A stretch of 22,023 bases of DNA from a virus. Below are positions 1 to 20,485 of the stretch, in pieces. A model generated the notes under the pieces. The model made no database searches and was not told where the DNA came from. It worked only from the letters and a program-made list of their open reading frames with translations. The position numbers and the translations under genes were made by a program. Numbering within the stretch: position 1 is the stretch's first letter; each line of letters begins with the position of its first letter. Location: the UHGV virus genome UHGV-0871375; one strand, written 5' to 3'.

Positions 1-1
1 A

Positions 2-127
2 TCCATGGAGATGTCATCGTCGTTTTCCTCATGCGTATCTCGCCTTTCTTTTCTCTTCCCTGATGATTCCATATATTTGGAGAAGTCCGGGTTGTTGACC
101 ACGGAACGCATTTGCGACTTTATATAA
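2..127 (+). CDS. possible 3' end of an early-region gene whose start lies outside the window
   Basis: Frame is open from the window edge to TAA at 125-127 while the other two plus frames hit stops earlier; next gene's RBS and ATG follow immediately. No homology recognised. Confidence 0.2.
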   Translation, partial: SMEMSSSFSSCVSRLSFLFPDDSIYLEKSGLLTTERICDFI

Positions 128-143
128 AATGGGGAGACACAAA

Positions 144-386
144 ATGTTCAAACGCTGCATCACCAAGTGTGGAAGCACACCTGACATCCACGCTTTTATT
201 AATGAAGATGGTAAGCTTGTTGTTGAGAGGAGTGGTCATTTTATTAGCAAACAACTTATCATTACCTCTCCAGCGGAGATGGCCGGGGAATGGATAGTTT
301 CTGAACCAGAGGAGTTGCACATCCCGCTTCCTTATGGCCCTCAGGGACTGATTTATAACCGTTATGTTCAGAAGGAGGCGGGTTGA
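144..386 (+). CDS. hypothetical early-region protein (80 aa)
   Basis: ORF 129..386 in the track; ATG at 144 is preferred because GGGGAG at 131-136 sits 7 nt upstream, whereas the ATG at 129 has no RBS. Same strand and operon direction as xis/int. No family recognised. Confidence 0.55.
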   Translation: MFKRCITKCGSTPDIHAFINEDGKLVVERSGHFISKQLIITSPAEMAGEWIVSEPEELHIPLPYGPQGLIYNRYVQKEAG

Positions 387-665
387 CAATGTCAGGCATA
401 ACATCGCCGAGAAATCGAAAGAAAAACAGAACAAGGTAAACGTTGATCTTGCAGCATCAGGCATGGAGTACAGAGAGCGCCTTAACATACCTGTTATCAC
501 TGAGCAGGTATCATGAGAGCAACCTGAGCACTCACGCGAGTATTTCATGGAGCGCATCAGATACTATCGCGAGCAGTCGTTAAACATGCCCAAGGGAAGC
601 AACCCATGGTATATCGATATGGATGAACAGAACGCCAAGAAGTAAACGCAATTTGAACGAATGCG

Positions 666-692
666 AACCCGCCGAGTGCGGGTTTTCTTTTA
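666..692 (+). terminator. intrinsic terminator-like hairpin plus T-run
   Basis: aacccgc-cgagt-gcgggtt stem-loop followed by TTTTCTTTT, read directly from the sequence. Confidence 0.5.
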
Positions 693-734
693 TCTGAACT
701 CGCTACGGCGAGTTTTGTTTTATGGAGACAAGAA

Positions 735-1079
735 ATGTCAGATTTGGCTATGAAGGTTTTGAAATGGCAATCGACTGGCGATGTTGGCATCAGTAGCGCA
801 ACTCTTGCCTCAATCGCATGTGGACTGAAAAAGAATATCTATGGTCATAGCTTCGGTGCTCCACATGACGCAGCCGATTTCAGACGATGCGTTGCACTTG
901 TTGAGCAGATTCCAGAAATCAGAGATTCATTCGACAAGGTTGCAAAGCGCGTTCCGGCATTCAAAGGAATCCTCAACGAATGGGATTTCCTCGTTGCTCT
1001 TTTGAAGTCTGAAATGAAGATACACGGAAACAAAGCACCAGAGACTTACAGAAGAATCAGCGAGCTACGCAAGGACTAA
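735..1079 (+). CDS. hypothetical early-region protein (114 aa)
   Basis: Clean 114-codon ORF with GGAGA RBS about 8 nt upstream of the ATG; terminator-like hairpins on both sides. No family recognised. Confidence 0.65.
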   Translation: MSDLAMKVLKWQSTGDVGISSATLASIACGLKKNIYGHSFGAPHDAADFRRCVALVEQIPEIRDSFDKVAKRVPAFKGILNEWDFLVALLKSEMKIHGNKAPETYRRISELRKD

Positions 1080-1136
1080 CCCGCCTCACACTCGATGAGG
1101 CCTGTTCATTTCTCAAGATATCCAGACCTACCATCG

Positions 1137-1156
1137 CCGCATCAATGCGGTTTTTT
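1137..1156 (+). terminator. short hairpin plus T6 run upstream of xis
   Basis: ccgca-tcaa-tgcgg followed by TTTTTT at 1151-1156. Short stem, so weak. Confidence 0.35.
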
Positions 1157-1157
1157 C

Positions 1158-1200
1158 TTGCGTGTAATTGCGGAGACTTTGCGATGTACTTGACACTTCA
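1158..1200 (+). promoter_or_regulatory. pI-like promoter with CII box (TTGC-N6-TTGC)
   Basis: TTGCGTGTAATTGC at 1158-1171 matches the lambda CII recognition repeat and the surrounding sequence matches lambda pI as I recall it. Its position overlapping the xis start is the lambda arrangement that lets Int be made without Xis. Confidence 0.55.
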
Positions 1201-1402
1201 GGAGTGGAACGCTCGCCAGCGACGCCCAAGAAGCCTTGAAACAGTTCGTCGATGGGTGCGCGAATGCAGGATATTCCCTCCTCCGGTTAAGGATGGAAGA
1301 GAGTATCTGTTCCACGAATCAGCGGTAAAGGTTGACTTAAATCGACCAGTAACAGGTAGCCTTTTGAAGAGGATCAGAAATGGGAAGAAGGCGAAGTCAT
1401 GA
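1184..1402 (+). CDS. xis: excisionase Xis (72 aa), lambda-type
   Basis: Translation MYLTLQEWNARQRRPRSLETVRRWVRECRIFPPPVKDGREYLFHESAVKVDL... is essentially lambda Xis from memory. The true start is the ATG at 1184, not the upstream ATG at 1145 used by the ORF track. The 3' end overlaps int as in lambda. Confidence 0.9.
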   Translation: MYLTLQEWNARQRRPRSLETVRRWVRECRIFPPPVKDGREYLFHESAVKVDLNRPVTGSLLKRIRNGKKAKS

Positions 1403-2453
1403 GCGCCGGGATTTACCCCCTAACCTTTATATAAGAAACAATGGATATTACTGCTACAGGGACCCAAGGACGGGTAAAGAGTTCGGATTAGGCAGAGACA
1501 GGAGGATAGCAATTACTGAAACAATACAGGCCAATATTGAGTTACTCTCAGACAGCGGACGCAAATCACTGATAGACAGAATTAAAGGCGGTGACGCAAT
1601 CACTCTTCATGTGTGGCTTGACCGATATGAAAGAATCCTCACCGAAAGGGGGATCAGGCCGAAAACTCTACTCGACTACGCCAGCAAAATCAGGGCAATC
1701 CGAAGAAAATTGCCGGACAAACCGCTCACTGACATATCAACGAAAGAAGTGGCAGCAATGCTAAACACCTACGTAGCAGAAGGTAAAGCAGCTTCCGCAA
1801 AATTAATCAGGTCAACCCTTGTTGACGTTTTTCGTGAAGCAATAGCCGAGGGGCATGTGGCAACGAATCCGGTAACAGCAACCCGTACAGCAAAGTCAGA
1901 AGTAAGGCGCTCAAGGCTGACAGCTAATGAGTATGTCGAGATTTACCATGCAGCCGAACCTCTCCCTATCTGGCTAAGGCTGGCGATGGATTTGGCCGTC
2001 GTTACAGGGCAGAGAGTCGGCGATTTGTGCAGAATGAAATGGTCAGACATAAACGACAACCATCTTCACATTGAACAGAGTAAAACAGGGGCTAAACTCG
2101 CCATTCCGCTAACGCTAACGATTGACGCGCTCAATATCTCATTGGCTGATACACTACAGAAATGCAGGGAGGCCAGCAGCAGTGAAACTATAATCGCATC
2201 AAAGCATCACGATCCGCTTTCCCCGAAAACAGTATCAAAGTATTTTACAAAGGCGAGAAATGCATCTGGACTCTCATTTGATGGAAACCCGCCAACATTC
2301 CATGAACTGCGTAGCCTGTCAGCGAGGCTATACCGGAACCAGATTGGCGATAAGTTTGCTCAACGTCTTCTCGGGCATAAATCAGATTCAATGGCGGCGC
2401 GGTATAGGGACAGCCGTGGACGGGAATGGGACAAAATTGAAATCGACAAATGA
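1380..2453 (+). CDS. int: tyrosine integrase, lambda Int family (357 aa)
   Basis: The first ~47 aa (arm-binding domain) match lambda Int as recalled. Catalytic residues are present in lambda-like context (VTGQRVGDL, EQSKTG, HELRSL, LLGHKS, ARYRD). Residues ~55-170 (core-binding domain) are clearly diverged from lambda. Confidence 0.95.
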   Translation: MGRRRSHERRDLPPNLYIRNNGYYCYRDPRTGKEFGLGRDRRIAITETIQANIELLSDSGRKSLIDRIKGGDAITLHVWLDRYERILTERGIRPKTLLDYASKIRAIRRKLPDKPLTDISTKEVAAMLNTYVAEGKAASAKLIRSTLVDVFREAIAEGHVATNPVTATRTAKSEVRRSRLTANEYVEIYHAAEPLPIWLRLAMDLAVVTGQRVGDLCRMKWSDINDNHLHIEQSKTGAKLAIPLTLTIDALNISLADTLQKCREASSSETIIASKHHDPLSPKTVSKYFTKARNASGLSFDGNPPTFHELRSLSARLYRNQIGDKFAQRLLGHKSDSMAARYRDSRGREWDKIEIDK

Positions 2454-2680
2454 TTTTATTTTGACTAATAATGACCTGCCCACATTAATTCATTGATAAT
2501 AAAAGAGATTTTAAATATACAACTTATTCACCTAAAGGGTGATAAAATCATACAAATCACCTAAAAATCATATAGTTGCATGCATTAGTGGTTAAATAAC
2601 AGACTACAAAATGCTACAAAACACAACATATCCAGTCACTATGAATCAACCACTTAGATGGTATTAGTGACCTGTAACAG
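2454..2680. other. attP-like attachment region with lambda-type arm sites; core not identified
   Basis: 2600-2680 is close to the reverse complement of the lambda attP P arm, including arm-type sites CAGTCACTAT (2631-2640) and TTAGTGACCT (2664-2673). A P'-arm-like site with one change (ATAATGACCT) lies at ~2472-2481. The lambda core GCTTTTTTATACTAA is absent; a CAACTTATT core-type-like motif sits at 2520-2528. Confidence 0.55.
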
Positions 2681-2684
2681 AGCA

Positions 2685-2726
2685 TTAGCGCAAGGTGATT
2701 TTTTGTCTTCTTGCGCTAATTTTTTG
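2685..2726 (+). terminator. sib/tI-like hairpin terminator downstream of int and attP
   Basis: ttagcgcaag ... cttgcgctaa inverted repeat followed by TTTTTT; matches my memory of the lambda sib/tI retroregulation element and lies in the same relative position. Confidence 0.6.
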
Positions 2727-3020
2727 TCAACACACTGGGTTGGCTTAATTTACAACCATGCTCAGTATCTCGATAAGCGCAGAGAAATGATGCAATGGTG
2801 GGCGGACTGGCTTGATGAAAAGGTGGAGTGATCCACCTTAACTATCGAATGACACAAATCCTTGCAATCCAGTGCAAAGCTTTGTGTACCTTAGTTTTGT
2901 CTCATAGGTAATTCTGCTTTAACTGCGATGCAGGAATCTGTCACCAGACGCACGTCTCGTTGTTTTATGGTTTTCCGTTCATGATTAATATGTTAGCTTG
3001 TCAAAGTTTGTGTTTAAGAT

Positions 3021-3691
3021 ATGGTGATTGATGCAATGTTAAGCGTTCAGATGACTCCACAAGCAAAAGTTAGCTTCGAGGAGCAATGTTTTTTTCATGC
3101 TTCAGGTCTTGTTGTTGCCCCAATAAATGTTGGAGCATTCTCCTACTTTGGCGCTAATTGTATGCTCGGCGGCTTTACGATGGGTAGATTTTGTTCAGTT
3201 GCTCCAGGAGTAAAAATTGGCCTTGGCGAGCATGAAACTGGGTATTTTTCTACGCATCCTTTTTCTTTGGCTCAAAAAATGGTTTTAAAATCCCTGATGG
3301 TATAGGAATGCAACGCGACCTCTCTCAACAGAAGCATGGTATACCAAGAATTGGTCATGACGTATGGATAGGTGCAAATGCGGTTATCAGGCGAGGTATA
3401 ACTATTGGTACTGGCGCTGTTATTGCTGCTGGCGCTATTGTCACCAAAAATGTCGAGCCATATTCAATCGTAGGTGGCGTTTCTGCAAAACACCTAGGGT
3501 ACAGATTTGAGGAATCAATCATCAAAGAGTTACTGGATAGCCAATGGTGGGAATATGATTTAAGCTCATTTATTGGGATTGATACAAGGACACCGACTAC
3601 TTTTTTAGAGCAGTTTAATGCTATAAAAGATAAAAAGAAGGCATCTTATAAGAGATTTACAATTCTTCCATCCGGTGAAATTGTTGAATAG
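3021..3691 (+). pseudogene. hexapeptide-repeat (left-handed beta-helix) acetyltransferase, XAT/CatB-Vat-like, split by a frameshift
   Basis: ORF 3021..3305 carries N-terminal motifs (SFEEQ..., GRFCSVAPG, STHPFSL) and ORF 3308..3691 in another frame carries the hexapeptide core ([13 protein letters not shown]...[12 protein letters not shown]...PYSIVGG) and a C-terminal WW motif (LLDSQWWEY). The two frames join into one ~215-aa protein (...HPFS[L/F][11 protein letters not shown]...) if one nucleotide is added in the T-rich stretch at ~3263-3269. Confidence 0.6.
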
Positions 3692-3712
3692 CGCATCCCT
3701 GCGCTATATTTT
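3690..3712. terminator. shared hairpin between the convergent acetyltransferase and tailspike genes
   Basis: agcgca-tccc-tgcgct perfect 6-bp stem at 3690-3705 lies in the 19-bp gap between the two stop codons, followed by ATATTTTA on the plus strand. Confidence 0.4.
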
Positions 3713-6077
3713 AAATAAACATAAGAATAAACATCAGAAGTTCCTCGTATCTGATACCATACTGATAACCAGCAGGTTTAATAATAACCTGCCTTCCTGT
3801 GTAATATTCCTCGTCGTACCACTCTCCTGTTTCATTGTTTTTAACACTCCTAATTAATACCTCTGGAGCATAAATATCATCCCATTCATCATAACACCAG
3901 AACGCATAGTTATTAGGGTCAAGACCGTATTTTCTGAGAATATTACCTACAGTTTGTGCACCAACACCGAAATGAATCCGAGCGCCATCACTCTTGATCT
4001 TTACTGCATCTTTAAATTTAAACCTCCAGATATTTTTCTTTATTTCAAGCGCAGCAAGACGCTCTGATTCTGTTGTTTTCTCGTCAGCCTCAATACGCAA
4101 TTTCAGCTCTTCATTCGACGTGTTGATACTGCCAGTACCAGCGTATACCTGTGACCATCGAAATGCTGATGTTCCGTTTGAGTTAACATTATCAACAGTT
4201 GGTTTTATAAGGCCAGAAAAATGAGTTTCAGGTGATGTATGAAGAAGATATCCGCCAGAATCGTTTTTTGTGCGTAATTCTATAGAGTCTACAATTATTC
4301 CACTGCGACGAATAATGATAGCGTTATTACCTTGTGCACCATTGTCTTTCTGAGTGGATAGTGTGTATCCGGTACGAGTATCTATCCTCCATCTTTTGGT
4401 ATCTTCTGATGCTTCCTGATTATAAAGATAAATAGAGTTATCAGTGTAATTATTTTTGCCATCAATATTTGTAAGTGTAAATGTGTTATTTACTTTGTCA
4501 TCATTGACCATTAAATTGGCAAGAGTGTAGAGAGGAGATGCAGTATACTGGCTGCAATTAAAACCACGTGCGTTTTGTATGTTAAGTAATGTTGTGACAT
4601 TAGCATTAATGCTAATATTGGAAAAGTTTGTCGCCTGATTTGCTCCATGTATTGATGATGTTACTCCTATCTGAGCTCCAATATCCAATGTACCAAAACT
4701 TACATTAATGAAGTTGTTTGCATCGCCACCATCTATAATTATTCCTTTTTTAGTCGTCGTATAACCTGATGCACTGCTAATCTCCAATCCATTAATGGTG
4801 CACACTCTTGGTCTGATGAGTCTAATTCCTACCCATTCATTTCCGTGGTCATATCCTCCTCCTGCTCTATGTATGGCTAGTCCATTAGCAATCAAAAGAA
4901 ATCTGTTATCAAGATTAATAGGGTGAAGCTGGCTATTAATGATAACGTTTGTCCATATAGACTCACCATACGCATAGCGATTTGATTCGAACACTCTATC
5001 CTGAGCATCATAAACACCGTTTAGGGATCTAGCAACATCGACATTGGTAAGATTGAAATATGTCTTCTGCTTAATTTCAAAAAAATTGGCAACGTTATGC
5101 GTTGTGATATCACTCACACGCATGGATAAAATACCTTCTTCTGGAGCGGTGCGAATGAATCCATCAAGGAACTGTTCATTATAACTTTTGGCTATCTGAT
5201 AACATCCAACAGCATCAATGCGTTCGATTGTGAACTGCCAACTATCACCACAGTTAAAAGACCATTCCCAACCGTACTTCTGTGCGAATTCATCAGAATC
5301 AATATTTGCAGTCTCAGAACAGAAAGATAAAAATCTAAATGTTGGTTTTGGCCTTAGATGATTAAGCCCGACACCTCTTGGGGTATATATGGCATTAGCG
5401 CCATTCCCGCCTTTGCTTTTAATTGTAAGGTGACTTAAACCAAATTCAACATCATGCTTAGTTGGTGCAGCGAAAACAAATCCATCTTTTGGTGATGTGG
5501 TATTATCAAACACAATAACCGTTTTACCCTGTCCATCGCCACACATATTCACTGGTGGTATATTAACTGGTCCAATTAAATTATATGTTCCAGTTGGAAT
5601 ATATAACTTTCCACCATCTCCAAGAGCATTTGCTGCTGCAATAAATGCCACCGTATCATCGTTAACACCGTCACCTTTCGCCCCATAATGCTGTGGCGTA
5701 ATTAACAGCATACGGTCAGAAAAAATCTCTTCCCTAAGTTGATCAGGATCGTATTTTAATACATTTGGAAAATAAAACTGCTGAGTGCCATATGCATCAT
5801 ATACAGCCATAGAATGGCCTTGCACAGTTACGAATTTGGCAATCTGCCCGTTATATACCGGATATCCAGCAGCGTTAATGATGATTGGTTGCGAAACAGG
5901 AACATGAGAGCCGTCTTCGTTCTCTACATAAACCTGAATCTGGTTTTCTGGACTTACCGGGTCAGTGTCAATTTTTCCGATATAAATTTTGCCGTTGGCT
6001 ACTGCTTTAAAAGAACGCGCCATAGTGAAAAGTTGCGAAGGCATACTCACTACAACATTGGCTGTAATGTCTGTCAT
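3711..6077 (-). CDS. tailspike protein (788 aa): P22-type head-binding N-domain, pectate-lyase-like beta-helix domain, C-terminal chaperone-like domain
   Basis: First ~110 aa ([41 protein letters not shown]...VTVQGHSMA) match the P22-family tailspike head-binding domain. [11 protein letters not shown] opens a right-handed beta-helix depolymerase-like region. The C-terminus ([11 protein letters not shown]...IWRFKFKD...[10 protein letters not shown]) resembles intramolecular chaperone (peptidase S74-type) domains. GGAG RBS is 9 nt upstream. Confidence 0.9.
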
Positions 6078-6241
6078 TTAATTTTCTCCAGACGTAGCAA
6101 TGCGGAACAAGATGCAACTTGCCCGGCATTGCATTAATGTAAGTTATGATTTGTTAACTATGAAATGAGTCTATGCAAAAAGATCTGTTGAATATTGCGT
6201 TCTATATATTTGGTTTTTGCACATTTCTGGTGTTTGCAAAG

Positions 6242-8239
6242 CTATTCTGACAACGAATCAGACTTCGCACCCTGCGTCAGGGCGTTAATTGCCTTTTGTG
6301 CCTGCTGCATGGTTTTCTCAAACTCTGTTGATCCGCGTGGGGTGTTTGCCATTCGGAGCATTGCATTTCTGAATGGCTCGCTCTCATAGGCGCGAGTAAG
6401 AAGTCCGTAGCTTACTGCTGCGCCAGTTGTCGCCGGGTTCATTGCCGTCCCATACCCAATAATGAACGGGATAGTTTGCTGCCCTGTGGGTGTTGTTACT
6501 GCCGCTTTTGCAGCCTGCTGCGTGGATTGTAGGTAGTTTTTTAATCCTTTCAGATAAGCAGCGTCCTGCCCCTTAAATGTGATGCCAGTCTGGTTTTGCA
6601 GGATGTTAAGCTGCCGAAGGAACTGGTCAGGGGATCCGCCAGATTTCTCCATCGCCTTTCCAATGATGCCATTGCGCATTTGCGCCCTGCCAACACGACC
6701 AACTGAGTTATACAGCGTCTTAATTTCCGATTTGTTCTTGCTGAATAGCATGTTGTTGACAACTTCCGGCGTCAGGTCTCCTTTCATGAGAACATTCTTC
6801 AGCCTGGTATTCTTTAGTTTCGCCGCTTCGTCAGCGTAGACGGCATTGGCCTGCTGATATTTACGGAGAGTATCGTTGCCAAGATTCTGACCAATGGCAC
6901 CATTGATATCGTCGGTCATCGCCTTGTAAACACGTTGAATGGCGGCATCGGAACGGTTTGGTAAGACTGGTCGCTCCCCCTTCACGTCCATTCTGAACTG
7001 GCTGCGCAGATCGCTTAATTGCTTCAAATCCAGATTAACCGGACCATCAGGGCCAGCATTGCGAACAAGCTCATCACGATATGACTGAAGTTTTGAAATT
7101 GTCTCGTTATCAGCTACCTTACCAAGCTTCTGCAGATTAGATATTTCTGTATCAATCTGCTGAATTGCTCGCGCAGGCTGAATGTTTACTCCAGCCATAG
7201 CATTCTGAACCTGCTCCAGTCGATTACCGGCGGCACGACGAATTCCTAATGTTTTCGCTTTAAGGCTGTCAATAACAACAGATGGATCATACTCACCGAA
7301 TTTATCAGCAAATCTCTGCACCAACTGGCTTCTCGCTTCCTGTTGCGTTGCTCTCATTCCGCTTGTGCCAGCCAGAGGGATATTTTCTGCTGTAGTCTGC
7401 GCCATTTTTCCGACGCGGGAAGTGGGTTGTAACAGGTCTGTGGTGTGCAGAGGAACGCCTTCACGCTCTGCAAATCTGATAGCTTGCTGTGCTTCTGGCG
7501 CAATAGCACCACGAACTCCACGATAAGCAGCACCTAATCCACGTCCGGCAGCGTTAATAGCACCGCCAGCCAGCACACCAACGCCTAAATCGGTGGCGAG
7601 TGCTTCCGCATCATCTTTCGCACTATTTGCAGCAAGTGATCCAACTGCGTTTTCTGCTAGAAGGCGAGTTGCCCCCTGAGCAATTCGACCAGCAAGTGTT
7701 GGTGCCTGTACCGCCGCTCTCTCAACTCCAGCAGGAGTGAGGTAAGGCAATGCTTCAGAAAATACCCTTCCCTCTGTCGTTTGTGGAGTCAGCGCACCTT
7801 GCTGAAGGCCAAAGTCCTGCTCTAATCCCTGCGTTGTTACTCGTGGTGCTGGTTGATATGTACCATCGCCAATACCGAGTTTACCGCCAGCCCAAGCCGC
7901 CGCGCTTGTTACAGCATCGGCAACTGATGCAGGTATGTTTGCCACGTTCACGCCAGCCTGCACCAGTCCACGACCAGTCTCTTTTACTGCTTCACCAAGA
8001 TCAGACATAAATCCACTTTGCTGTGGTTGTTGCTGTGCTACTGGTTGTTGTGTCTCCACTGGCTGCACAGATGGCAATGGATAGGCAGCATAGAAAGCTT
8101 GCTTAGCCTGCTCTGCATTTTCTCCGGCTTGCGGGGCCACGACTTCATTGAAGTATTGCTCCTGAGCCTGCGCTTTTTGTTCTGGTGCTAACGCCTGATA
8201 CTGTGGAGAGGCGATAACATCTTTCCATGCTTTAGCCAT
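6242..8239 (-). CDS. ejection/internal protein, P22 gp16-like (Sf6 gp13 position), 665 aa
   Basis: Gln/Ala-rich low-complexity N-region typical of ejection proteins; position immediately before the tailspike; start overlaps the upstream stop. Confidence 0.8.
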   Translation of the reverse strand: MAKAWKDVIASPQYQALAPEQKAQAQEQYFNEVVAPQAGENAEQAKQAFYAAYPLPSVQPVETQQPVAQQQPQQSGFMSDLGEAVKETGRGLVQAGVNVANIPASVADAVTSAAAWAGGKLGIGDGTYQPAPRVTTQGLEQDFGLQQGALTPQTTEGRVFSEALPYLTPAGVERAAVQAPTLAGRIAQGATRLLAENAVGSLAANSAKDDAEALATDLGVGVLAGGAINAAGRGLGAAYRGVRGAIAPEAQQAIRFAEREGVPLHTTDLLQPTSRVGKMAQTTAENIPLAGTSGMRATQQEARSQLVQRFADKFGEYDPSVVIDSLKAKTLGIRRAAGNRLEQVQNAMAGVNIQPARAIQQIDTEISNLQKLGKVADNETISKLQSYRDELVRNAGPDGPVNLDLKQLSDLRSQFRMDVKGERPVLPNRSDAAIQRVYKAMTDDINGAIGQNLGNDTLRKYQQANAVYADEAAKLKNTRLKNVLMKGDLTPEVVNNMLFSKNKSEIKTLYNSVGRVGRAQMRNGIIGKAMEKSGGSPDQFLRQLNILQNQTGITFKGQDAAYLKGLKNYLQSTQQAAKAAVTTPTGQQTIPFIIGYGTAMNPATTGAAVSYGLLTRAYESEPFRNAMLRMANTPRGSTEFEKTMQQAQKAINALTQGAKSDSLSE

Positions 8240-9540
8240 TAATCACCCCATAGTGAAGAAAAGTTACTGCCAGCAGGAGATTGTTGTCCTGGCGTATTCT
8301 GTACTGGCTCCTGATAATCAAACTGTTTTTTAACAGTGCTCAACTTGCTTTCAAGCTGATTTCTAATCTTTCCGATAGAGTCACGAAAAGCCTTTTCGCT
8401 CATTTTGGGGCTTAGGGCACCAACCGCATCGGATAATTTTTTACCCTCAGCATCTGAAAGAGCCCCCATACCCTTAAGGGACTGCACCATAGGAAGGAAA
8501 GTTTGAGCTTTAAAGGTGTCGAGCCTTGCTTCAAAGTTAGCCGCATCAGAGCCAGGAACTGTTGGAAACGCTGAGCGAATTCCTACTGCTTTTGAAAGGC
8601 CGGGGCTTTGCTCTATCTCGTTGAGAGAATCAAGCGCTGTGCTGAACGTATCAACTGCACCCTGAGCGGCGGCCTGCCTGTCAGCGCGGGCTATGTCAGC
8701 CTTTTGCCGAACATCTGCCTGTTTCTGTTTTAGCTCTTCAAGCTTTAACTGATTGCTTTCTCTGGCTATTTGTCTGTCCAGAGCCTTTTCTTGTAATTCT
8801 GCTCTTTGTATTTCGCGGGAAAGAGCAGCATTCTGTGCGCTGATGTTCTGTCCACGTATCTGGATGTCCTGCCCTCTCGCCTGAAGTGCTTCGCTGGCCT
8901 GATTGCTGCGGATTGTCTCTGCCAGTCTGCCTCGGTCAATCTCACGACCAGCTATCTTGTCCTGAACATTGAAGTAATCAATCGGACCAAGCGCAGCCAT
9001 TCCAAGGTGATCAACAAACTCACCAAACCCTGAAGGATTCTGCTGATACATCTGAGCAACGTTGTTAGGGTCAACACCGACGCGAGTCAGTTCCTTGGCG
9101 TTGTTTTGTAGCCATGATTGCATTGCTTCTGGAGACGATGCCGCAAGGCGAGCGCCAGCCGCCAAGGTGCCGATAGAGTTGCGCTGGTCTTCGTCTGCCC
9201 ACTTCATGCCAGACTGAATCTTCTCTAATTGACCAGGATATTTGGTCATCAAATCTCGCACCTGCTGTCGATCACCTGACTGGATGGCTGCCGCATATTC
9301 TTTTTGGAATGCAGCATCCGCTTCCTGTTGCTTTGCGGCTTGATATGTTTGAGCGACACTACCAAGTCCCTGCAACGCCTGAAGGCCGATGTTATTGCGA
9401 CCTGAACGCTCCATTTCGTTGTTCTGGCGAATATAGGCCAACGCCTCACTTACATCACTTGCCTTTGGCGCATTTGAGTTTTGCCCACCGATACCAGCAA
9501 GAAAACCGCCTGAGTTGATTCCTTGTTGCCAAGTAGCCAT
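8239..9540 (-). CDS. ejection protein, P22 gp20-like, 433 aa
   Basis: Size and position in the gp7-gp20-gp16 block; Gly/Ala/Gln-rich composition; coupled stop/start with the next gene. Confidence 0.8.
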   Translation of the reverse strand: MATWQQGINSGGFLAGIGGQNSNAPKASDVSEALAYIRQNNEMERSGRNNIGLQALQGLGSVAQTYQAAKQQEADAAFQKEYAAAIQSGDRQQVRDLMTKYPGQLEKIQSGMKWADEDQRNSIGTLAAGARLAASSPEAMQSWLQNNAKELTRVGVDPNNVAQMYQQNPSGFGEFVDHLGMAALGPIDYFNVQDKIAGREIDRGRLAETIRSNQASEALQARGQDIQIRGQNISAQNAALSREIQRAELQEKALDRQIARESNQLKLEELKQKQADVRQKADIARADRQAAAQGAVDTFSTALDSLNEIEQSPGLSKAVGIRSAFPTVPGSDAANFEARLDTFKAQTFLPMVQSLKGMGALSDAEGKKLSDAVGALSPKMSEKAFRDSIGKIRNQLESKLSTVKKQFDYQEPVQNTPGQQSPAGSNFSSLWGD

Positions 9541-9549
9541 ATTCCCACC

Positions 9550-10224
9550 TTAAAACAATGATCCAAGACCACCGATAATGCCGCCACCAATTGCGCCAAC
9601 AGCCGTACCTATTCCTGGCACCACAGAGCCAATCATCGCCCCTGATGCCGCACCGCTCATGGCACCTCCCAAGGCTGATTGCAGTCCTGATGGTCGGTTA
9701 GCATTAGCCGCAGATGCTGCCGCCTGCTGTTGATACAATTGGCTGACGTTGTTAGCGTAGTTCTGTCCGGCGTTTGCCTGACCTGTAAGAGCACCAAGGC
9801 CGATATTTGCCAGATTGTTGTAGTTGTTCATCTGACCTGACAGCCAGTTTTGACCGAGTGTAGGTGCGATTGCTGCTAACTGGTTTCCTGTTGCTGTAGA
9901 GCCTAATCCACCCGTTGCCTCTGCTGCTGCCAGACTCTGGTAACGCGCCTGCCCTGCAAGGTCTTTATACTGCTGGGAGTTGTAATACTGGTTAAGCGCC
10001 TGACCTTGCCCCTGAAGAGAGGAAAGATTCTGCAACTCTGATACATACTGCTGAGCGAGTGGAGTGAACGGTGCAAGGTTTTGCATGTTCGTCTGCCACA
10101 TTTCACGCTGCAATTCGATACCCTTTTCAGTTGCGCGTGCCTGGGCTTTTGAACCGCCATCACTGCCACCTTTGCAGTAAACAGCTTTGCTGAGGTGCTT
10201 ATTGGCAATCTGGAGAATTAACAT
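9550..10224 (-). CDS. ejection protein, P22 gp7-like, 224 aa
   Basis: Size and position; glycine-rich hydrophobic C-terminus (GAMSGAASGAMIGSVVPGIGTAVGAIGGGIIGG). ATG at 10224 overlaps the upstream gene by 26 nt. Confidence 0.75.
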   Translation of the reverse strand: MLILQIANKHLSKAVYCKGGSDGGSKAQARATEKGIELQREMWQTNMQNLAPFTPLAQQYVSELQNLSSLQGQGQALNQYYNSQQYKDLAGQARYQSLAAAEATGGLGSTATGNQLAAIAPTLGQNWLSGQMNNYNNLANIGLGALTGQANAGQNYANNVSQLYQQQAAASAANANRPSGLQSALGGAMSGAASGAMIGSVVPGIGTAVGAIGGGIIGGLGSLF

Positions 10225-10681
10225 TCTTTAGCTCCTCGTATTTTGAGCGCGGTAACTGATAAATCGTGATGCCTACAGGCTTTCCATTGCTGGTATAAGC
10301 ATCATCAAGGTGACCAACACGGGTAGCGCCAAGCAAACGGATAATTGACCGTCCGTATTTCGTGGTGTCAGGAACCATGGTAATGCTGTTAAGGAATGGT
10401 GAGTTTTCGAGAAGCCATTTGCAGAATAATCGATGCCCTTGCAGTGCATATTCGCCACGGAATCCTGGGTCGTACACCGCATGACATTCAACAACGCTAT
10501 GCCAGAAGTTACGCACTTCATGAACGCCAGCCAGCACTAATCCTTCGTAGATGCCGAGATATACCGCATCAGGCTTGATGTAGTATTTATCTCCACTGTC
10601 TACGATATTTCCCGTGTTTGCCGGGTTGTTGAGGAATTCTGCAAGCTTCACCGGATTATCGATGAGCTTTATTTCCATCAC
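10199..10681 (-). CDS. P22 gp14-like protein, 160 aa
   Basis: Conserved position between tail needle and gp7-like gene; 4-nt ATGA overlap with the needle stop. Confidence 0.7.
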
Positions 10682-11631
10682 TGCTCCGCAATGATTTTGA
10701 TGGTTGTGGCAGTAAACGACGCACCATTAGACTGAATGGTTAACGTACTGCCATTTGTGGCAAGAAAGCCGTCTTTATCCACGCTGAAGAACGTAGCTAA
10801 CAGGATGTTATCGGTTGTTGTCGCCGAGTTGCGACTGCTTACCAGTGTGTCAGGAACAGAGCCGGAAAAGGTTAGCTGCATTGATCTGTTTGCGGTTCCG
10901 CTGGGCCACGTCCCGACGATCGACAGCTTGAAGAACAAGGTTTTGTTCTCGTTGAACACAACCATCTTGTTGTTAACGGTGTCGAAGAATGGTGCCAACG
11001 TTCCGGATGACGGCGTGAGCGTTTTCAGCAAGCTAACAAGGTTAGTCGGCGCTGTCGGGATGGTTACAGATACTCCTGAGTAAACAACCTCTGATTTCTT
11101 GCGCGTGGTGGCATACTCAAGCGCAGATATTCTTGTTGAGTGATCACCAACTGTGCTTTGTAGCGTCGAAATACTTCCTTCTGCCGCTGTGAGCCTGGTA
11201 TCAAGTGCGTCGATATCGGTTTTATTCTGAGTTATGCGCGCATCATGGTTTGCTAACTCAGATTCATTGGCAGCAATTCGTGTCTCGTGATCAGCCAGCT
11301 CTGTTTCAGCAGCCGTAATCCTTGTTTCATGATCTGCAAGAGTGCTTTCCGCTGCTGCAATTCTATGTTCATGATTGATGAGAGTTGCTTCAGCAGCTTC
11401 AATTCTGGATTCATGGTCTGCAAGGGTGACATCCTGCTCATCATTCTTCACCTGTGCATCATAAGCCCCCTTCCCTGCTTCGTTGGCCTTGTTAGCCACG
11501 TTACCAACATCAGCGCCCTGTGCGATAACGTACAGCAGATATGACTGCGAGAAGATATCGCGCGGAAGGACTGATGTGTCGAGCCGCGTAGCCTGGATGA
11601 TTACCGGCTCATTGAGATTCGAATCAGCCAT
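10678..11631 (-). CDS. tail needle (P22 gp26-like) with extended C-terminal knob, 317 aa
   Basis: N-terminus [39 protein letters not shown] matches the P22 gp26 N-terminus; the central part is a heptad coiled coil; the longer C-terminal domain is like the Sf6-type needle knob. Confidence 0.9.
11212..11424 (-). repeat. five tandem 42-bp (14-aa) coding repeats inside the tail needle gene
   Basis: Protein repeats [14 protein letters not shown] / [14 protein letters not shown] / [14 protein letters not shown] / [14 protein letters not shown] / [14 protein letters not shown]; the DNA periodicity shows up as repetitive antisense ORFs in the track. Confidence 0.8.
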
Positions 11632-13049
11632 TACTCAATCCTTATCTGGCAACCAGACAGAGTGACAGGTGACTTCGTGATAACGCGCAATTTGAAGCCG
11701 ACATTTTTCCTGATGCGCCCTACTCGCTTCCACAAAACACGTTTGTCGTAAACGAACGGTTCATTCTGCTCAATCATCTGCTCACGCCCGTAATTGATGC
11801 CGTCAGTGGTTGCAGAGAGAAAAAGGCGGTCAGCATACTGCGCAACGCCAGTTGACGACTCAACCTCAAGGTCGAAAACTCTGGCGTTATCCGCTTTGAA
11901 CAACGGAGTAAACAGCAGGTGTTCCTGTTGCTTGTCGTACTGGCTGCTGATATCGAACTGCAATCTCCCTGTCATCGATTCAAGCTTATCGCCGCACGTA
12001 ATTTGGTTGCCTTCGTAAATGAAGTCGATAGCGCGGTACACATCGTCATACAGGCCTGTTTTCAGTACACACCATTGCGGACCATTGGCGCTTGAAGATG
12101 CGTCGTACACGAGGACGTGGCGCGGCAGGTGAATAATCAGCAACTCATGAGCATCAAACCGCAACGATTCCATCACGCCATCAGCCAGTTCATCAGCAGT
12201 GTAGGAGCGGAGGATTTTCTCAATGCTCGCGCTGGCTATTGGTGATACCTGACCGGAGCCGATGATATACACAGACGGCGCACCTGTTGCCGGATTGCTG
12301 ATGAACGCATACGAATCGGCGAACGGCGTTTTGCAGTAAGTCCCGGCAATACCTTTCTGCACCATCAGCGATGGCTGTGCGACATACAAAGCAGCACCAA
12401 CTGTGGTTGCACCAGTCAGGGAGAAATATTCAATCGTCGATGAACCAAAGCAGACGATGAAGTCTCGCCATGTTCCGATACCGATGATGCCGTCCGGCTG
12501 AGACTCGGCACGATATTGTGCGCTGTAACGGTCAGGATGAGATTCGTCTTCAGGGTCAGTGATGAACCATGAATCCGTGCCGTCTTTTGACCACGCATAA
12601 CGCCCACGTAAGCGAGTAATGTCACGAACCGAACCTAACTCGTACTGTGTGAATCCGCTGTCTGTAGGCCAGTTTGAGACGGTTTTAACCGTGCCATCAT
12701 AGCGATACTCAACCAGTTGACCATTAACGCCTACCGCCTGTGATGTCCGGCCATGCGCCATTGATACACGACCACTTCCGGCGACATCACCAACCTCGCT
12801 TTCTCCTTTGTACAGTTTGCCACCACACACGCGATAAACAGCACTCTGCGCCATGTTGTACTCGACGCCGCGCGATACACCGTTCACATCAGAGCGTTTG
12901 GCAATGCCCGGGAATGAGCGAAGATATCCGCTGCTGTTCAGGATTTCTTTGGGTGTAGCCAACATATTCACTGGCAGATAGTCGATATAGTCGGCGTTTC
13001 GAAAGTCTTTGCCGACACCTTTCATAAGCGGAAGTTGCTGAATCGGCAT
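11631..13049 (-). CDS. tail hub / head-completion protein, P22 gp10-like, 472 aa
   Basis: Same length as P22 gp10 and recognisably the same protein along its length ([16 protein letters not shown]...[17 protein letters not shown]). Confidence 0.95.
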
Positions 13050-13058
13050 TTATTCACC

Positions 13059-13520
13059 TCACGTACTCGGATCATCTTTCTCGATGTAAAACCGATTCCA
13101 CGTAAACGCGCTTTTGTTACCACTACCGCGAGGCATGTCATTTCGCCGCTCAAGTGGTGGTATTTTGGTTAAAGCGATACAGATTGTTTGATATGCACTG
13201 TCAGCAGCGGTAAGGAGAGCGTCTGACGGCTGAATGACGTTATCCATGCACACTTGCACAGCGAGTTTCAAAGCGACGCCATCATTTGCCCATGCAGGGA
13301 TACCTGAATCATCGTCAGGTAACGGCATGATGCCGTTTTCTGTATCAGCAAACTGATACCCAAGCTCGATACCTTTCGCCAGCCATGCTGCCATCATGTC
13401 TTCGAGGTCATTAATGGCATCTTCAATTGCCTGAGGGTCAGCATCTGTCAACGTGGCATTGGAATACAGCCCGGCTTTTCGTAAAGCCTTTAGAACGAGA
13501 TCACCCTTCGTTTTCGCCAT
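13059..13520 (-). CDS. portal-closure / tail accessory protein, P22 gp4-like, 153 aa
   Basis: Size and position between coat and gp10-like genes. Confidence 0.8.
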   Translation of the reverse strand: MAKTKGDLVLKALRKAGLYSNATLTDADPQAIEDAINDLEDMMAAWLAKGIELGYQFADTENGIMPLPDDDSGIPAWANDGVALKLAVQVCMDNVIQPSDALLTAADSAYQTICIALTKIPPLERRNDMPRGSGNKSAFTWNRFYIEKDDPST

Positions 13521-13689
13521 CTTCTTCCGCCTTAGCCACTTTTTGCTTCGTTGCGGTTTCTTCAGGAGTTTTTACCCAACCTTTTTTCAGGTGAGATTTA
13601 ACTTCTTCGTCATCAACAATGATGTAATCGACAGCAAACTGACCACAGGTGATCATGTTGCCAGGCTTATAGAGCATTGTTCGTGCCAT
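13501..13689 (-). CDS. small hypothetical protein (62 aa) between coat and gp4-like genes (Sf6 gene 6 position)
   Basis: ATG at 13689 preceded by GGGAGAAG RBS; the ORF track's start at 13728 is further upstream. Acidic C-terminus; 20-nt overlap with the gp4-like gene. Confidence 0.5.
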   Translation of the reverse strand: MARTMLYKPGNMITCGQFAVDYIIVDDEEVKSHLKKGWVKTPEETATKQKVAKAEEDGENEG

Positions 13690-13730
13690 TGTCTTCTCCC
13701 AATAAAAATGGGGCCGAAGCCCCACCAAAA

Positions 13731-14984
13731 TTACTGCCCGGCAATAACGATGCCCGTATATTCAGGAACAAGTACAGAGCAACCGTACAGAGTGGTGAAA
13801 CGAGCAGTGGTTACGCCTTTGATGTGGTCGAAGGCGTAAGACATGATCAGCGTAGCGCCCTGCTCGGTGGTTGCTGTCATTACCTGTGGACCCTGACCAG
13901 TCGGGAACGCCAGTTTGCCGTACATCAGCTCAACAGAACCATCAGCCCAGAACAGGTTAGCCGGTGCAGCATTCTTGTTGAGAATGGTGATTGCTGCGCT
14001 ATTTGCCGCGTTAGCATCAACGTTTGCATATGGTCGGCTGGCGACATCCGCGTTGTCAGGCGGCAGAATTTTCGGGGAGATAGTTACTGTCGTTCCGCTT
14101 ACTGCCAGAACGCGGAATACCTGCGGCTGCCAGGTGGTATCTTTGGTGATCTGGTGTACAGAATTCACCCCTGCAATGGTAAACGCATCACCAACCTGCA
14201 AACCTTCAGCAGATACCGTAATGGTCCCCTGTCGGTTATCAACTGGCATATCGTTAGCATCTTTCGCTTCAACTTTGTGCGCAGGTGCTGCTGCCAGCGT
14301 AATGGAAGTTGCTGTCCCTTTCGGAACACGACCAGAAATATCGGTCTTGTAGCTATCAAAGGAAGCAACCGGAGGGATCTGCGCTTTTTCGTATGCTGTC
14401 AGGGTTGCGCCCTGAGCGTAGGCACGATGACCAAGCTCGCCAGCAAGGTCTTTGTAGTTGAAGGGGTTCCAGAAAGAGCGACGGTTGATACCCTGCGGTA
14501 CACCAATCGCCGTCATGGTGGCATCAATACCTGCCGCACAGTTCCACAAATCACGGCCCTGTGAACCAGTGGTTGAGTCAGACATTGTGATCACGTTAGT
14601 AGCACGCTGCGTAACCATGGAAATCAGGTCAGAGTCAATCTGTGCAGCAAGGCGCATACCTGCGGAGCGACCAGCTTCAGTTTTATGCTCAGGGTCACGC
14701 ATTTCACGCGCATCCAGAGTGTACAGAATGTTTTTCGGCTCCTTGAATACAGAAGGAACAAGGCGCTGAACCAGTGCTGTAGGTGTTTTTCCGCTGAGGT
14801 CGAGGCCTTCCTCAATGTTCATGTGGTAATGCTGCGGACGATACAGAACATCACCTGCTCGCTGCATTGCTGTATCACCGGGACGGAATTTTTTAGCGTT
14901 ACGGGAAACTACGCAGGCGGCCTCAAAGCCTTCAACGTAGTTTTCGAACATGATTTCAAGGTCTTTTGCTAATTGGTTAGCCAT
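13731..14984 (-). CDS. major coat protein, P22/Sf6-type, 417 aa
   Basis: Position after scaffold; C-terminal region (ANVDANAANSAAITILNKNAAPANLFWADGSVEL) matches the P22 coat family as recalled. Confidence 0.9.
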   Translation of the reverse strand: MANQLAKDLEIMFENYVEGFEAACVVSRNAKKFRPGDTAMQRAGDVLYRPQHYHMNIEEGLDLSGKTPTALVQRLVPSVFKEPKNILYTLDAREMRDPEHKTEAGRSAGMRLAAQIDSDLISMVTQRATNVITMSDSTTGSQGRDLWNCAAGIDATMTAIGVPQGINRRSFWNPFNYKDLAGELGHRAYAQGATLTAYEKAQIPPVASFDSYKTDISGRVPKGTATSITLAAAPAHKVEAKDANDMPVDNRQGTITVSAEGLQVGDAFTIAGVNSVHQITKDTTWQPQVFRVLAVSGTTVTISPKILPPDNADVASRPYANVDANAANSAAITILNKNAAPANLFWADGSVELMYGKLAFPTGQGPQVMTATTEQGATLIMSYAFDHIKGVTTARFTTLYGCSVLVPEYTGIVIAGQ

Positions 14985-15002
14985 GCTTAATGCTCCGATA
15001 GG

Positions 15003-15896: not shown

Positions 15897-15986
15897 TTGT
15901 TACCCCTGTTTACTCGATGTTCAGCCCATCGGAAGGCAATAGGGTGCCAGGCCTCATAAAGACAGCCATTGCACGTTATGGGTTAA

Positions 15987-18185: not shown

Positions 18186-18186
18186 A

Positions 18187-19602: not shown

Positions 19603-20024
19603 TTTCCGAACAGAGTGCTCATCGGTGATGTTTCAATCTGAATTGCGCCGCCGTCCTTACCGACAAGCTCGTTAGTTACCTTGTCGCCATACTTACGGGG
19701 ATTCATTCTGGCCAGCGCCCATTTGCGGGTATCAACGCGAAGTCTTGCCTTTGCCACCTCAGCAGCATCTGGAATCGCATTGTCAGCAATTTCGAATATC
19801 TCTTCGAAAATAGAATCAGCTCGCGCCTCAGTTGCCTTCGCGTACTTGTCTCTAAATTCGTCATGCTCTGACAGCCAGCGAAATACAGTAGCCTTTGCTG
19901 GCATGCCGGGGCGCTTGCAAACCTTAACCAGACTTTCCCCGGAGGCAAGCAGCGCACAGATATCATCAGCCACCTCCGGCAGGTAATCCGAAGGGCGACC
20001 GACATTCTTTTTCTCAGTCGCCAT
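19599..20024 (-). CDS. terminase small subunit, Sf6 gp1-like, 141 aa
   Basis: Size and position directly upstream of TerL; sequence recalled as similar to the Sf6 small terminase (MAT...GRPSDY...CKRPGMP...). Confidence 0.85.
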   Translation of the reverse strand: MATEKKNVGRPSDYLPEVADDICALLASGESLVKVCKRPGMPAKATVFRWLSEHDEFRDKYAKATEARADSIFEEIFEIADNAIPDAAEVAKARLRVDTRKWALARMNPRKYGDKVTNELVGKDGGAIQIETSPMSTLFGK

Positions 20025-20103
20025 ATTGATTATTTCCCTTCTGCTTGCTTATCCCATTCATCGCGGAATTTGGATGGGTTGTCGAAACCTTGAGTTGCCA
20101 TGT

Positions 20104-20346: not shown

Positions 20347-20451
20347 TGTTGGCTCCGTTTATCCGTTAAAAGGGATATCAGTTAAGTTATCCCGTGTAGG
20401 GTATAAGCCATTATCAAAGCCACTCTGTAGGGAATGGCTTTTGTGATGGCA

Positions 20452-20475: not shown

Positions 20476-20485
20476 TGTTAGTTGT

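What the first reader, a model, noticed from the sequence alone, without database searches (positions are those of the whole stretch)
129..1156. Two uncharacterised early-region genes upstream of xis, each followed by a terminator
The 80-aa and 114-aa proteins (144..386, 735..1079) sit in the lambda ea-region equivalent between the recombination genes and xis, a hypervariable region where accessory genes accumulate. Neither matches a family I recognise, and each is followed by a terminator-like hairpin, suggesting independently acquired units.
Basis: partly seen in the sequence, partly recalled or inferred. Interest (0 to 1): 0.5.

Follow-up and report, generated by a model that had tools for sequence, protein, structure and literature searches.

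The report
Ordinary phage accessory genes before xis

Summary
Both ORFs exist as described: orf80 at 144..386 and ORF114 at 735..1079. The anatomy is only partly as described.

- **A missed gene.** Between the two ORFs lies a DNA polymerase III theta / P1 Hot-like pseudogene (364..645). It has an in-frame TGA and a 1-nt deletion near its start.
- **Terminators.** The tandem terminators at 665-685 and 696-715 follow this pseudogene, not orf80. The terminator after ORF114 (1136-1151) is the conserved hairpin just upstream of the CII-dependent pI promoter of xis-int, as in lambda and phage 434.
- **ORF114.** It is 95-99% identical to ORF114 of phage 434, HK022 and Stx phages. It belongs to a family of about 2,859 50%-identity clusters with no Pfam, NCBIfam or PADLOC model. 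Its predicted fold is a confident all-alpha one (pLDDT 93.5) with no solved relative. In temperate phages it is usually the last gene before xis, whatever the xis/int type.
- **orf80.** It occurs in only 91 of 5,426 complete E. coli genomes. It shows purifying selection (dN/dS about 0.17), but no usable structure model was obtained.
- **Left edge.** The first ~123 bases of the window come from an unrelated phage, probably a chimeric assembly join.

Verdict: ordinary, already annotated exo-xis accessory genes. Function is unknown and interest is low to moderate.

The parts
1..123 (.). Foreign segment, probably a chimeric assembly join. It is an internal piece of a minus-strand 170-aa gene of an unrelated low-GC phage.
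   Evidence: 100% identical to IMG/VR UViGs of metagenome 3300045988 up to about 126, then switches to E. coli prophage sequence with only ATAA shared. No match in complete E. coli genomes or in phage records.
144..386 (+). orf80: small protein-coding gene of unknown function (PHROG 9613; PGAP 'hypothetical protein').
   Evidence: ORF with SD GGGGAGA. phrog_9613 E 8e-50. dN/dS 0.17 against a 70%-identical homologue. Present in 91 of 5,426 complete E. coli genomes, always with the theta pseudogene. AF2 pLDDT 50.6, so no usable model.
364..645 (+). Pseudogene of a DNA polymerase III theta / phage P1 Hot homologue. It has an in-frame TGA at 514-516 replacing the conserved Arg codon, and a 1-nt deletion between 397 and 398 that puts the canonical ATG389 out of frame.
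   Evidence: PF06440 E 3.4e-15; phrog_1105; NF008207 at 91 bits when read through. Alignment to P1 hot and a Klebsiella phage theta gene. Intact relatives begin MSGHNIAEKS. PGAP note 'internal stop' in all 5 prophage annotations read. About 20 copies inspected, showing independent extra lesions.
665..694 (+). Intrinsic terminator-like hairpin (8 bp, 5 GC) plus UUUUCUUUU, at the 3' end of the theta pseudogene.
   Evidence: Co-conserved with the theta 3' end in Gifsy-1/2 (coordinates +99).
696..724 (+). Second terminator-like hairpin (8 bp, 4 GC) plus UUUUGUUUU. It is part of the conserved 5' flank (about 680-734) of the ORF114 module.
   Evidence: Positions 680-720 are 97.6% identical in 933W and other Stx phages, HK140 and mEp234. 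Some part of 660-734 is present in 68 of 80 ORF114-bearing viral contigs.
735..1079 (+). ORF114: member of a large uncharacterised phage protein family (PHROG 1229) with a predicted seven-helix all-alpha fold.
1083..1101 (+). Hairpin directly after the ORF114 stop, without a proper U-tract. It is conserved with the ORF114 module; its role is unknown.
   Evidence: Conserved in 434 and in E. coli prophages with other xis types.
1136..1160 (+). Intrinsic terminator immediately upstream of pI. It is homologous to the hairpin at the end of lambda orf55 and to the terminator annotated in phage 434.
   Evidence: One compensatory stem change between this window and lambda (A-T to C-G).
1158..1171 (+). 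CII box TTGC-N6-TTGC of the pI promoter.
   Evidence: Read directly from the sequence. Identical to lambda and 434, where it is annotated as the pI / CII binding site.
1184..1402 (+). xis (72 aa, lambda-type excisionase).
   Evidence: PF07825 E 2.5e-40.
1380..2453 (+). int (357 aa, lambda/HK022-type tyrosine integrase).
   Evidence: PF00589, PF09003 and PF02899. 97% DNA identity to HK022.

Best explanation
Positions 129-1156 are the promoter-distal end of the early-left (pL-type) operon of a P22-like (Lederbergvirus-like) temperate E. coli phage.

The stretch carries three cistrons read left to right towards xis-int:
1. orf80, a rare small accessory gene.
2. A decayed copy of a Hot/HolE-like DNA polymerase III theta gene.
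3. ORF114.

No promoter of their own was found. Inferred: they are delayed-early genes, reached only by antiterminated RNA polymerase that reads through the intrinsic terminators at 665-694, 696-724 and 1136-1160. The last of these is the conserved terminator that insulates the CII-dependent pI-xis-int unit from unmodified upstream transcription. The hairpins also coincide with mosaic joints, so they double as module boundaries where lambdoid phages exchange cassettes.

ORF114 is a compact seven-helix protein. Most of its invariant residues sit at helix N-caps or in the first turns of helices of the model. Inferred, with low confidence: it is a non-enzymatic early accessory protein that binds a conserved host component, giving host take-over or counter-defence. 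It is not a DNA-binding or catalytic protein. orf80 is real but of unknown role. The theta copy is non-functional.
For: Shown:
- ORFs and Shine-Dalgarno sites.
- The theta pseudogene and its two lesions. About 20 further copies were inspected, with independent additional lesions.
- Terminator positions.
- Homology of the 1136-1151 hairpin and the CII box with lambda and 434, including one compensatory stem change.
- The same gene order at the end of the N-cIII-kil-recombinase-ssb-abc2-ea22/DUF550 operon in many prophages.
- Only one weak + strand sigma-70-like site, at 233-262 inside orf80, upstream of xis.
- Mosaic joints at about 124, about 680 and about 1113-1171.
- ORF114 lies next to at least five different xis/int types.
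- ORF114 family size and lack of any annotation.
- A confident all-alpha model with no solved relative.
- The rest of the window is a P22-like virion and lysis module.

Inferred: expression by antitermination, and protein binding as the mode of action of ORF114.
Against: - No expression data exist. Dependence on antitermination is inferred from lambda and P22 biology only.
- The native upstream context is missing from the window, because 1-123 is foreign DNA.
- The invariant S/D/D/R/C/W set of ORF114 could equally mark a catalytic or ligand-binding site.
- One family member is fused to a CCA-adding enzyme / HD protein, which hints at nucleic-acid or nucleotide chemistry.
- The near-constant position next to xis could reflect a functional link with excision rather than plain module geography.
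Confidence: 0.6

Rival explanations
1. ORF114 is an accessory factor of site-specific recombination. For example, it could modulate Xis/Int directionality or a host factor such as IHF or Fis. That would explain why it is kept immediately upstream of xis.
For: It is the last gene before xis with lambda-type Exc/Int, TorI-type xis, an HTH-xis with a P4-type Int, and 933W-type xis (as a hybrid gene). The same holds for the 60%-identical Citrobacter homologues and the 33%-identical Mannheimia homologue.
Against: Homologues occur away from any annotated integrase: beside recombination/exonuclease genes in Salmonella phage Sergei, and inside a 264-aa protein between recombination genes in Yersinia phage P840. 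They also occur in 60-kb Vibrio phages and an Aeromonas phage whose neighbourhoods were not examined. The family has no basic recognition helix and no structural similarity to Xis or other HTH folds. It pairs with unrelated recombinases, which argues against a specific partner.
Confidence: 0.12
2. orf80 and/or ORF114 are morons: autonomously transcribed, terminator-bounded cassettes expressed from the prophage to benefit the lysogen, for instance by phage exclusion.
For: ORF114 is bracketed by terminator-like hairpins, as is its Mannheimia homologue. Both genes have patchy, mosaic distributions.
Against: No sigma-70-like promoter lies in 646-734 or upstream of orf80. The TATAAAAT at 121-128 straddles the chimeric join. 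Both genes are co-oriented with the early-left operon in every prophage examined. Neither hits PADLOC.
Confidence: 0.1
3. The theta/Hot-like gene is still functional, through UGA read-through or as a truncated 50-aa peptide. The region would then carry three working genes.
For: The TGA is present in nearly all copies, in prophages with different xis/int modules. The two ORF halves are otherwise intact, and each has its own PHROG.
Against: - All copies also carry the 1-nt deletion that disconnects the canonical SD/ATG.
- Some copies carry further independent frameshifts (L111, P0206).
- All copies are >=97% identical, so a shared TGA is explained by recent common descent.
- Intact prophage theta genes are 85 aa with Arg at this position.
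Confidence: 0.07
4. orf80 is not a gene but a chance ORF in decaying DNA next to the theta pseudogene.
For: Very narrow distribution: only 9 related protein clusters. No tblastn hit in 50,697 phage records. AF2 pLDDT 50.6. Frameshifted and hybrid variants exist.
Against: dN/dS 0.17 with dS about 1.5 against a 70%-identical homologue in a different prophage context. Good SD. The exact protein is on record in 445 blocks of the assembly collection. PGAP and PHROGs both call it.
Confidence: 0.12

Closest known systems
ORF114 of coliphage 434 (GenBank M60848; CPT_434_33 in OL657226), with the equivalent gene of HK022 and Stx phages; PHROG 1229
   Same: 95-99% amino-acid identity, same length, same position directly upstream of the terminator-pI-xis-int block.
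   Different: Nothing substantive. In 434 and vB_EcoP-720R6 a lambda orf55-like gene precedes it. Here it is preceded by the theta pseudogene and two hairpins.
Bacteriophage P1 Hot / E. coli HolE (DNA polymerase III theta subunit, PF06440)
   Same: Positions 400-645 align along the whole length of Hot and of prophage theta genes, at about 73-79% amino-acid identity to 85-aa prophage theta proteins. Hot stabilises the epsilon proofreading subunit (PMC2528190).
   Different: The copy here has an in-frame TGA at the conserved Arg and a 1-nt deletion after the start, so it is a pseudogene. Intact prophage copies sit in the nin region of the rightward operon, not in the exo-xis region.
Lambda exo-xis region genes next to xis (ea8.5, orf55)
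   Same: Same genomic slot: the last non-essential genes of the pL operon before xis. The same terminator/pI junction follows (PMC8614690).
   Different: No sequence homology. Neither orf80 nor ORF114 hits PF20735 (Lambda_ea8_5) or any other Pfam family. ORF114 is predicted all-alpha, whereas Orf55 is described as a small alpha/beta protein.
Terminator upstream of pI in lambda and 434 (annotated in OL657226 with PMID 6305007; from memory, the t'I terminator of Benedik et al. 1983)
   Same: The hairpin, U-tract and adjoining TTGC-N6-TTGC box are collinear with lambda and 434, with one compensatory stem change.
   Different: In lambda the hairpin overlaps the stop codon of orf55. Here it lies 57 nt after the ORF114 stop.
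Morons of lambdoid phages (promoter-gene-terminator cassettes)
   Same: A small accessory gene bounded by terminator-like hairpins, with a mosaic distribution.
   Different: No promoter was detected, and the gene is co-oriented inside an early operon.

Membership tests
DNA polymerase III theta / Hot (PF06440, NF008207) | Significant match to the family profile over its length | tested here: met
   PF06440 E 3.4e-15 for the N-terminal fragment. phrog_1105 matches both fragments. The read-through protein scores 91.4 bits against NF008207, just under its cut-off of 97.
DNA polymerase III theta / Hot (PF06440, NF008207) | Uninterrupted reading frame of about 76-87 codons with its own start | tested here: not met
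   TGA at 514-516 and a 1-nt deletion after ATG389. PGAP flags 'internal stop'. It is therefore filed as a pseudogene.
PHROG 1229 / phage 434 ORF114 family | Full-length profile match and near-identity to named members | tested here: met
   phrog_1229 E 9.9e-51 over residues 1-114. 95.6% identity to 434 and 96.5% to HK022.
PHROG 9613 (orf80) | Full-length profile match | tested here: met
   E 8.4e-50, residues 1-80 on profile positions 3-82 of 82.
Lambda Ea8.5 (PF20735) / lambda Orf55 | Sequence homology to the positional equivalents in lambda | tested here: not met
   No Pfam hit at E<=0.1 for either protein. They are positional analogues only.
Moron | Own promoter upstream of the gene | tested here: not met
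   The consensus scan finds no sigma-70-like site in 646-734 or in native sequence upstream of 144. A non-consensus promoter cannot be excluded.
Moron | Terminator downstream of the gene | tested here: met
   Hairpin plus U-tract at 1136-1160 after ORF114. For orf80 this is not met.
Intrinsic (rho-independent) terminator | GC-rich stem-loop followed by a U-tract | tested here: met
   Sites at 665-685, 696-715 and 1136-1151. The site at 1083-1101 lacks the U-tract.
Intrinsic (rho-independent) terminator | Termination in vivo or in vitro, and read-through by antiterminated polymerase | not testable with these tools
   Needs term-seq or in vitro transcription.
Known anti-phage defence or anti-defence proteins | Match to a PADLOC model or to a solved anti-defence structure | tested here: not met

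The most novel reading that the evidence does not exclude
ORF114 represents a very large (about 2,900 clusters at 50% identity) phage protein family that is absent from Pfam, with a fold not yet seen in solved structures. Its invariant S-P-D-D-R-C-W constellation may form a binding or catalytic site for a universally conserved host target or signalling molecule. That would make it a new class of early host-takeover or counter-defence factor, spread from Enterobacteria and Vibrio to Actinobacteria phages.
Probability: 0.2. Interest if true: 0.6.

Novelty: already known. Interest (0 to 1): 0.25.

Why it matters
For genome annotation:
- The region has three cistrons, one of them a dead theta/Hot gene.
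- Its terminators are the normal internal terminators of a lambdoid early operon.
- The window starts with about 123 bases of foreign DNA, so its left edge should not be interpreted.

For biology, the only item of wider value is ORF114. It is a compact domain that can be modelled with confidence. It is present in thousands of phage lineages, including the textbook phages 434 and HK022 and Shiga-toxin phages, yet it has no family model, no structure and no function. It would be a cheap target for a DUF definition, for structure determination, and for a knock-out or pull-down experiment in a very tractable phage.

Tried and rejected
- **Domain fusions in the ORF114 family.** Twenty multi-domain members had no Pfam or PHROG-annotated partner. 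The exceptions were one CCA-adding enzyme/HD fusion and one weak zinc ribbon. This is too thin to build on.
- **orf80 structure.** pLDDT was 50.6, so no fold search was attempted.
- **An apparent orf80-theta overlap.** I first took to show DNA homology between Klebsiella/P1 theta genes and the 3' end of orf80. I rejected this on noticing that coordinates are relative to window:100-700. The homology starts at window position 400.
- **A possible divergent gene at the left edge.** The minus-strand ORF at the left edge turned out to be a fragment of an unrelated phage gene.
- **An orf80-theta module elsewhere.** I looked for a native orf80-theta module in other prophages. The genes upstream of the intact theta genes examined are unrelated to orf80.
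- **Distant ORF114 loci.** The search for related loci with the diverse alignment failed. With the closer alignment it returned only 97-99% identical loci.
- **Literature and RNA searches.** Searches for ORF114 and for accession numbers found nothing. The exo-xis modelling review does not cover this gene. Rfam gave only a sub-threshold rsmX hit over the hairpins, and no tRNAs were found.

Full report
**What the window is.** Positions 2454-22023 are 94-96% identical to P22-like E. coli podophages: vB_EcoP-720R6 (a Lederbergvirus), Kapi1 and CUS-3. They encode a tailspike with the P22 head-binding domain, DNA-transfer proteins, portal, terminase and lysis genes on the minus strand. On the plus strand, xis (1184..1402, PF07825 E 2.5e-40) and int (1380..2453) are 97% identical at the DNA level to HK022.

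**Checking the observation.** Both ORFs exist. Each has a GGAG-type Shine-Dalgarno: GGGGAGA before ATG144 and GGAGA before ATG735.

The terminator scan gives 6 sites in 2.6 kb, against 2.4 +/- 1.4 in shuffles. The + strand sites are at 665-685, 696-715, 1083-1101 (no real U-tract) and 1136-1151 (folds). Nothing terminator-like follows orf80 for 279 nt. 'Each followed by a terminator' is therefore true for ORF114 and false for orf80.

**The missed gene.** The interval 364..645 is a homologue of the theta subunit of DNA polymerase III.
- The 50-aa ORF 364..516 hits PF06440 (E 3.4e-15).
- The in-frame 32-aa ORF 547..645 hits the C-terminal part of phrog_1105, 'DNA polymerase III theta subunit'.
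- Read through, the product scores 91 bits on NF008207.
- It aligns along its length with phage P1 Hot and a Klebsiella phage theta protein.
- Hot can replace theta in stabilising the epsilon proofreading subunit (PMC2528190).

Two lesions are visible. First, TGA at 514-516 replaces the Arg codon conserved in Hot, HolE and prophage theta proteins (VAREQPE). Second, one base is missing between 397 and 398. Intact relatives read ATG TCA GGT CAT AAC (MSGHN...), whereas here the sequence is ATGTCAGGC-ATAAC. As a result, the SD-preceded ATG389 is out of frame.

PGAP annotates the same locus as 'DNA polymerase III subunit theta, internal stop' in all five prophage annotations I read. About 20 further copies were inspected. 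All share the deletion and nearly all share the TGA. L111 keeps CGA but has another frameshift. P0206 keeps Arg but is frameshifted at its C-terminus. Independent extra lesions indicate neutral decay rather than recoding.

Intact prophage theta genes sit in the nin region of the rightward operon. This copy is therefore a displaced, dead cassette.

**orf80.** It hits only phrog_9613, of unknown function.
- The 5.8-billion-protein search finds nine related clusters, mostly E. coli.
- tblastn against 50,697 phage records finds nothing.
- Only 91 of 5,426 complete E. coli genomes carry the orf80-theta segment, at >=97% identity. In 84 of them the match covers at least 80% of the segment.
- It is nevertheless likely to be a gene. 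Against a 70%-identical homologue in a different prophage context, dN/dS is 0.17 with dS about 1.5. Its exact product is on record in 445 blocks of the assembly collection.
- The AF2 model is unusable (pLDDT 50.6). Its function is unknown.

**ORF114.** This gene is not new as a sequence. It is 95.6% identical to ORF114 of phage 434, so named in M60848. It is 96.5% identical to the HK022 gene and 98-99% identical to genes of Gally, mEp043 and Stx phages. It has no Pfam, NCBIfam or PADLOC match.

A profile of 12 homologues finds 2,859 clusters (50% identity) at E<=1e-3, and 618 at E<=1e-10. tblastn finds 277 phage records, all annotated 'hypothetical protein'. Hosts include Escherichia, Salmonella, Vibrio, Yersinia, Mannheimia, Aeromonas and Arthrobacter.

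Seventy-eight diverse members share invariant S20, P43, D45, D48, R51, C52 and W83. W11, G18, S21, L55 and P60 are nearly invariant. Scanning all 78 against Pfam, and the profile against PDB sequences, gave only noise.

In the model, most conserved residues fall at helix N-caps or in the first turns of helices:
- G18-I-S20-S21 lies before helix 19-28.
- P43-x-D45 lies before helix 46-58.
- D48, R51, C52 and L55 run along that helix.
- P60 and W83 each open a helix, and W11 lies near the end of helix 3-12.

A scaffold role is therefore at least as likely as catalysis, but this is inference. Fusion partners are uninformative, apart from one CCA-adding enzyme/HD protein that carries the domain at its C-terminus.

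**Position and module structure.** In enterobacterial prophages ORF114 is consistently the last gene before the excisionase, whatever the recombination module:
- lambda-type Exc/Int (this window, 434, L024, L025, L028);
- TorI-type xis (L002, L015-L023, L026);
- a 63-aa HTH protein with an oppositely oriented P4-type integrase (L012, L027);
- the 933W xis/int, next to a hybrid gene that appears to keep only the N-terminal half;
- two different integrases next to the 60%-identical Citrobacter homologues;
- a small ORF plus integrase next to the 33%-identical Mannheimia homologue, which is likewise bracketed by predicted terminators.

Its upstream neighbour varies: orf80 with the theta pseudogene, an orf55-like gene, a 99-aa ORF, or DUF551. 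Only 5 of 80 ORF114-bearing IMG/VR contigs carry orf80, and 20 of 80 carry the lambda-type xis/int. Homologues also occur away from any annotated integrase, in Salmonella phage Sergei and Yersinia phage P840. A dedicated role in excision is therefore unlikely.

DNA mosaic joints fall at about 124, about 680 and about 1113-1171. These are at or next to the hairpins. The segment 680-720, which includes the second hairpin, is 97.6% identical across many Stx and HK phages.

**The last terminator.** The hairpin GCCGCATCAATGCGG plus T6 at 1136-1156 abuts TTGC-N6-TTGC at 1158-1171. It is collinear with lambda, where it overlaps the orf55 stop codon, and with 434. The 434 record annotates a terminator (PMID 6305007) followed by the CII-dependent pI promoter. 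One stem pair differs from lambda in a compensatory way (A-T to C-G). An analogous hairpin precedes an unrelated HTH-type xis in strain DETEC-P61. It is thus a feature of the xis-int control region, not evidence that ORF114 is a self-contained acquired unit. From memory, PMID 6305007 is Benedik et al. 1983 on pI and the t'I terminator. I could not open the paper.

**How it most likely works.**
- *Shown:* three co-oriented cistrons, no detectable promoter, three credible intrinsic terminators, a conserved operon context, and a dead theta gene.
- *Inferred from lambda and P22 biology:* the genes are delayed-early. They are transcribed from pL by N/gp24-modified polymerase that ignores the terminators. 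The last terminator keeps unmodified transcription out of xis-int, so Int synthesis for lysogeny depends on CII and pI.
- *ORF114:* probably a small protein-binding accessory factor acting early in infection. A ligand-binding or enzymatic role, or a link with excision, is not excluded.

**An artefact at the left edge.** Positions 1-123 are 100% identical to the interior of a 170-aa minus-strand gene. That gene lies next to portal and terminase genes in unrelated low-GC UViGs of metagenome 3300045988. Identity ends at about 126, where E. coli prophage sequence begins, with only ATAA shared. Neither complete E. coli genomes nor phage records contain this segment. The join is most simply a chimeric assembly. 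The TATAAAAT at 121-128 is therefore not a native promoter element. The native upstream neighbour of orf80 is usually a DUF550 dATP/dGTP pyrophosphohydrolase gene, with other genes in some prophages.

**Verdict.** The finding is real but ordinary. It consists of already annotated, non-essential exo-xis accessory genes of a lambdoid/P22-like phage. It has one missed pseudogene and a partly wrong terminator assignment. The residual interest is that ORF114 belongs to a very large, entirely uncharacterised family with a confidently predicted fold not seen in solved structures.

Noticed in passing
window 1-126: The first ~123 bases are identical to an internal fragment of a gene from unrelated low-GC phage contigs of metagenome 3300045988. 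They join the E. coli phage sequence through a 4-base overlap (ATAA). This is a probable chimeric assembly end.
   Followed up: yes
window 364-645: Hot/HolE-like DNA polymerase III theta pseudogene with TGA at 514-516 and a 1-nt deletion at 397/398. Both lesions are shared by nearly all ~20 further E. coli prophage copies inspected, and a few copies carry further independent frameshifts.
   Followed up: yes
window 3021-3691: A hexapeptide-repeat acetyltransferase appears split over two ORFs in different frames (3021..3305 and 3308..3691). It lies between the attachment region and the tailspike gene. It may be a frameshifted surface-polysaccharide modification gene.
   Followed up: partly
window 2658-2831: A 57-aa ORF ending ...QWWADWLDEKVE resembles, from memory, the C-terminal stub of a P4-type integrase just downstream of int. 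There is no Pfam hit, so this is unverified.
   Followed up: partly
L038 (Mannheimia phage vB_MhS_1152AP2) 2444-4202: The 33%-identical ORF114 homologue shows the same architecture as the window: predicted terminator, gene, predicted terminator, small ORF, integrase.
   Followed up: partly
L030 (phage 933W) 1762-2073; hits H124-H126: 933W-like Stx phages appear to carry a hybrid gene (L0063, 103 aa) next to xis. The conserved ORF114 5' flank abuts it, and three other Stx-type phages (H124-H126) match only ORF114 residues 1-56. This suggests recombination inside the gene.
   Followed up: partly
P0015, P0052, P0062 (E. coli prophage proteins): These are fusions between DUF550 (dATP/dGTP pyrophosphohydrolase) proteins and ORF114. 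The join falls at a short shared motif (LLWDAQRRAGIS / LKWQSTGDVGIS), consistent with deletion by recombination between neighbouring genes.
   Followed up: no
P0176 (558-aa protein from the representative library): A CCA-adding enzyme / poly(A) polymerase head plus HD-domain protein carries an ORF114-like domain at its C-terminus (residues 451-537). It is the only fusion with an annotated partner.
   Followed up: no
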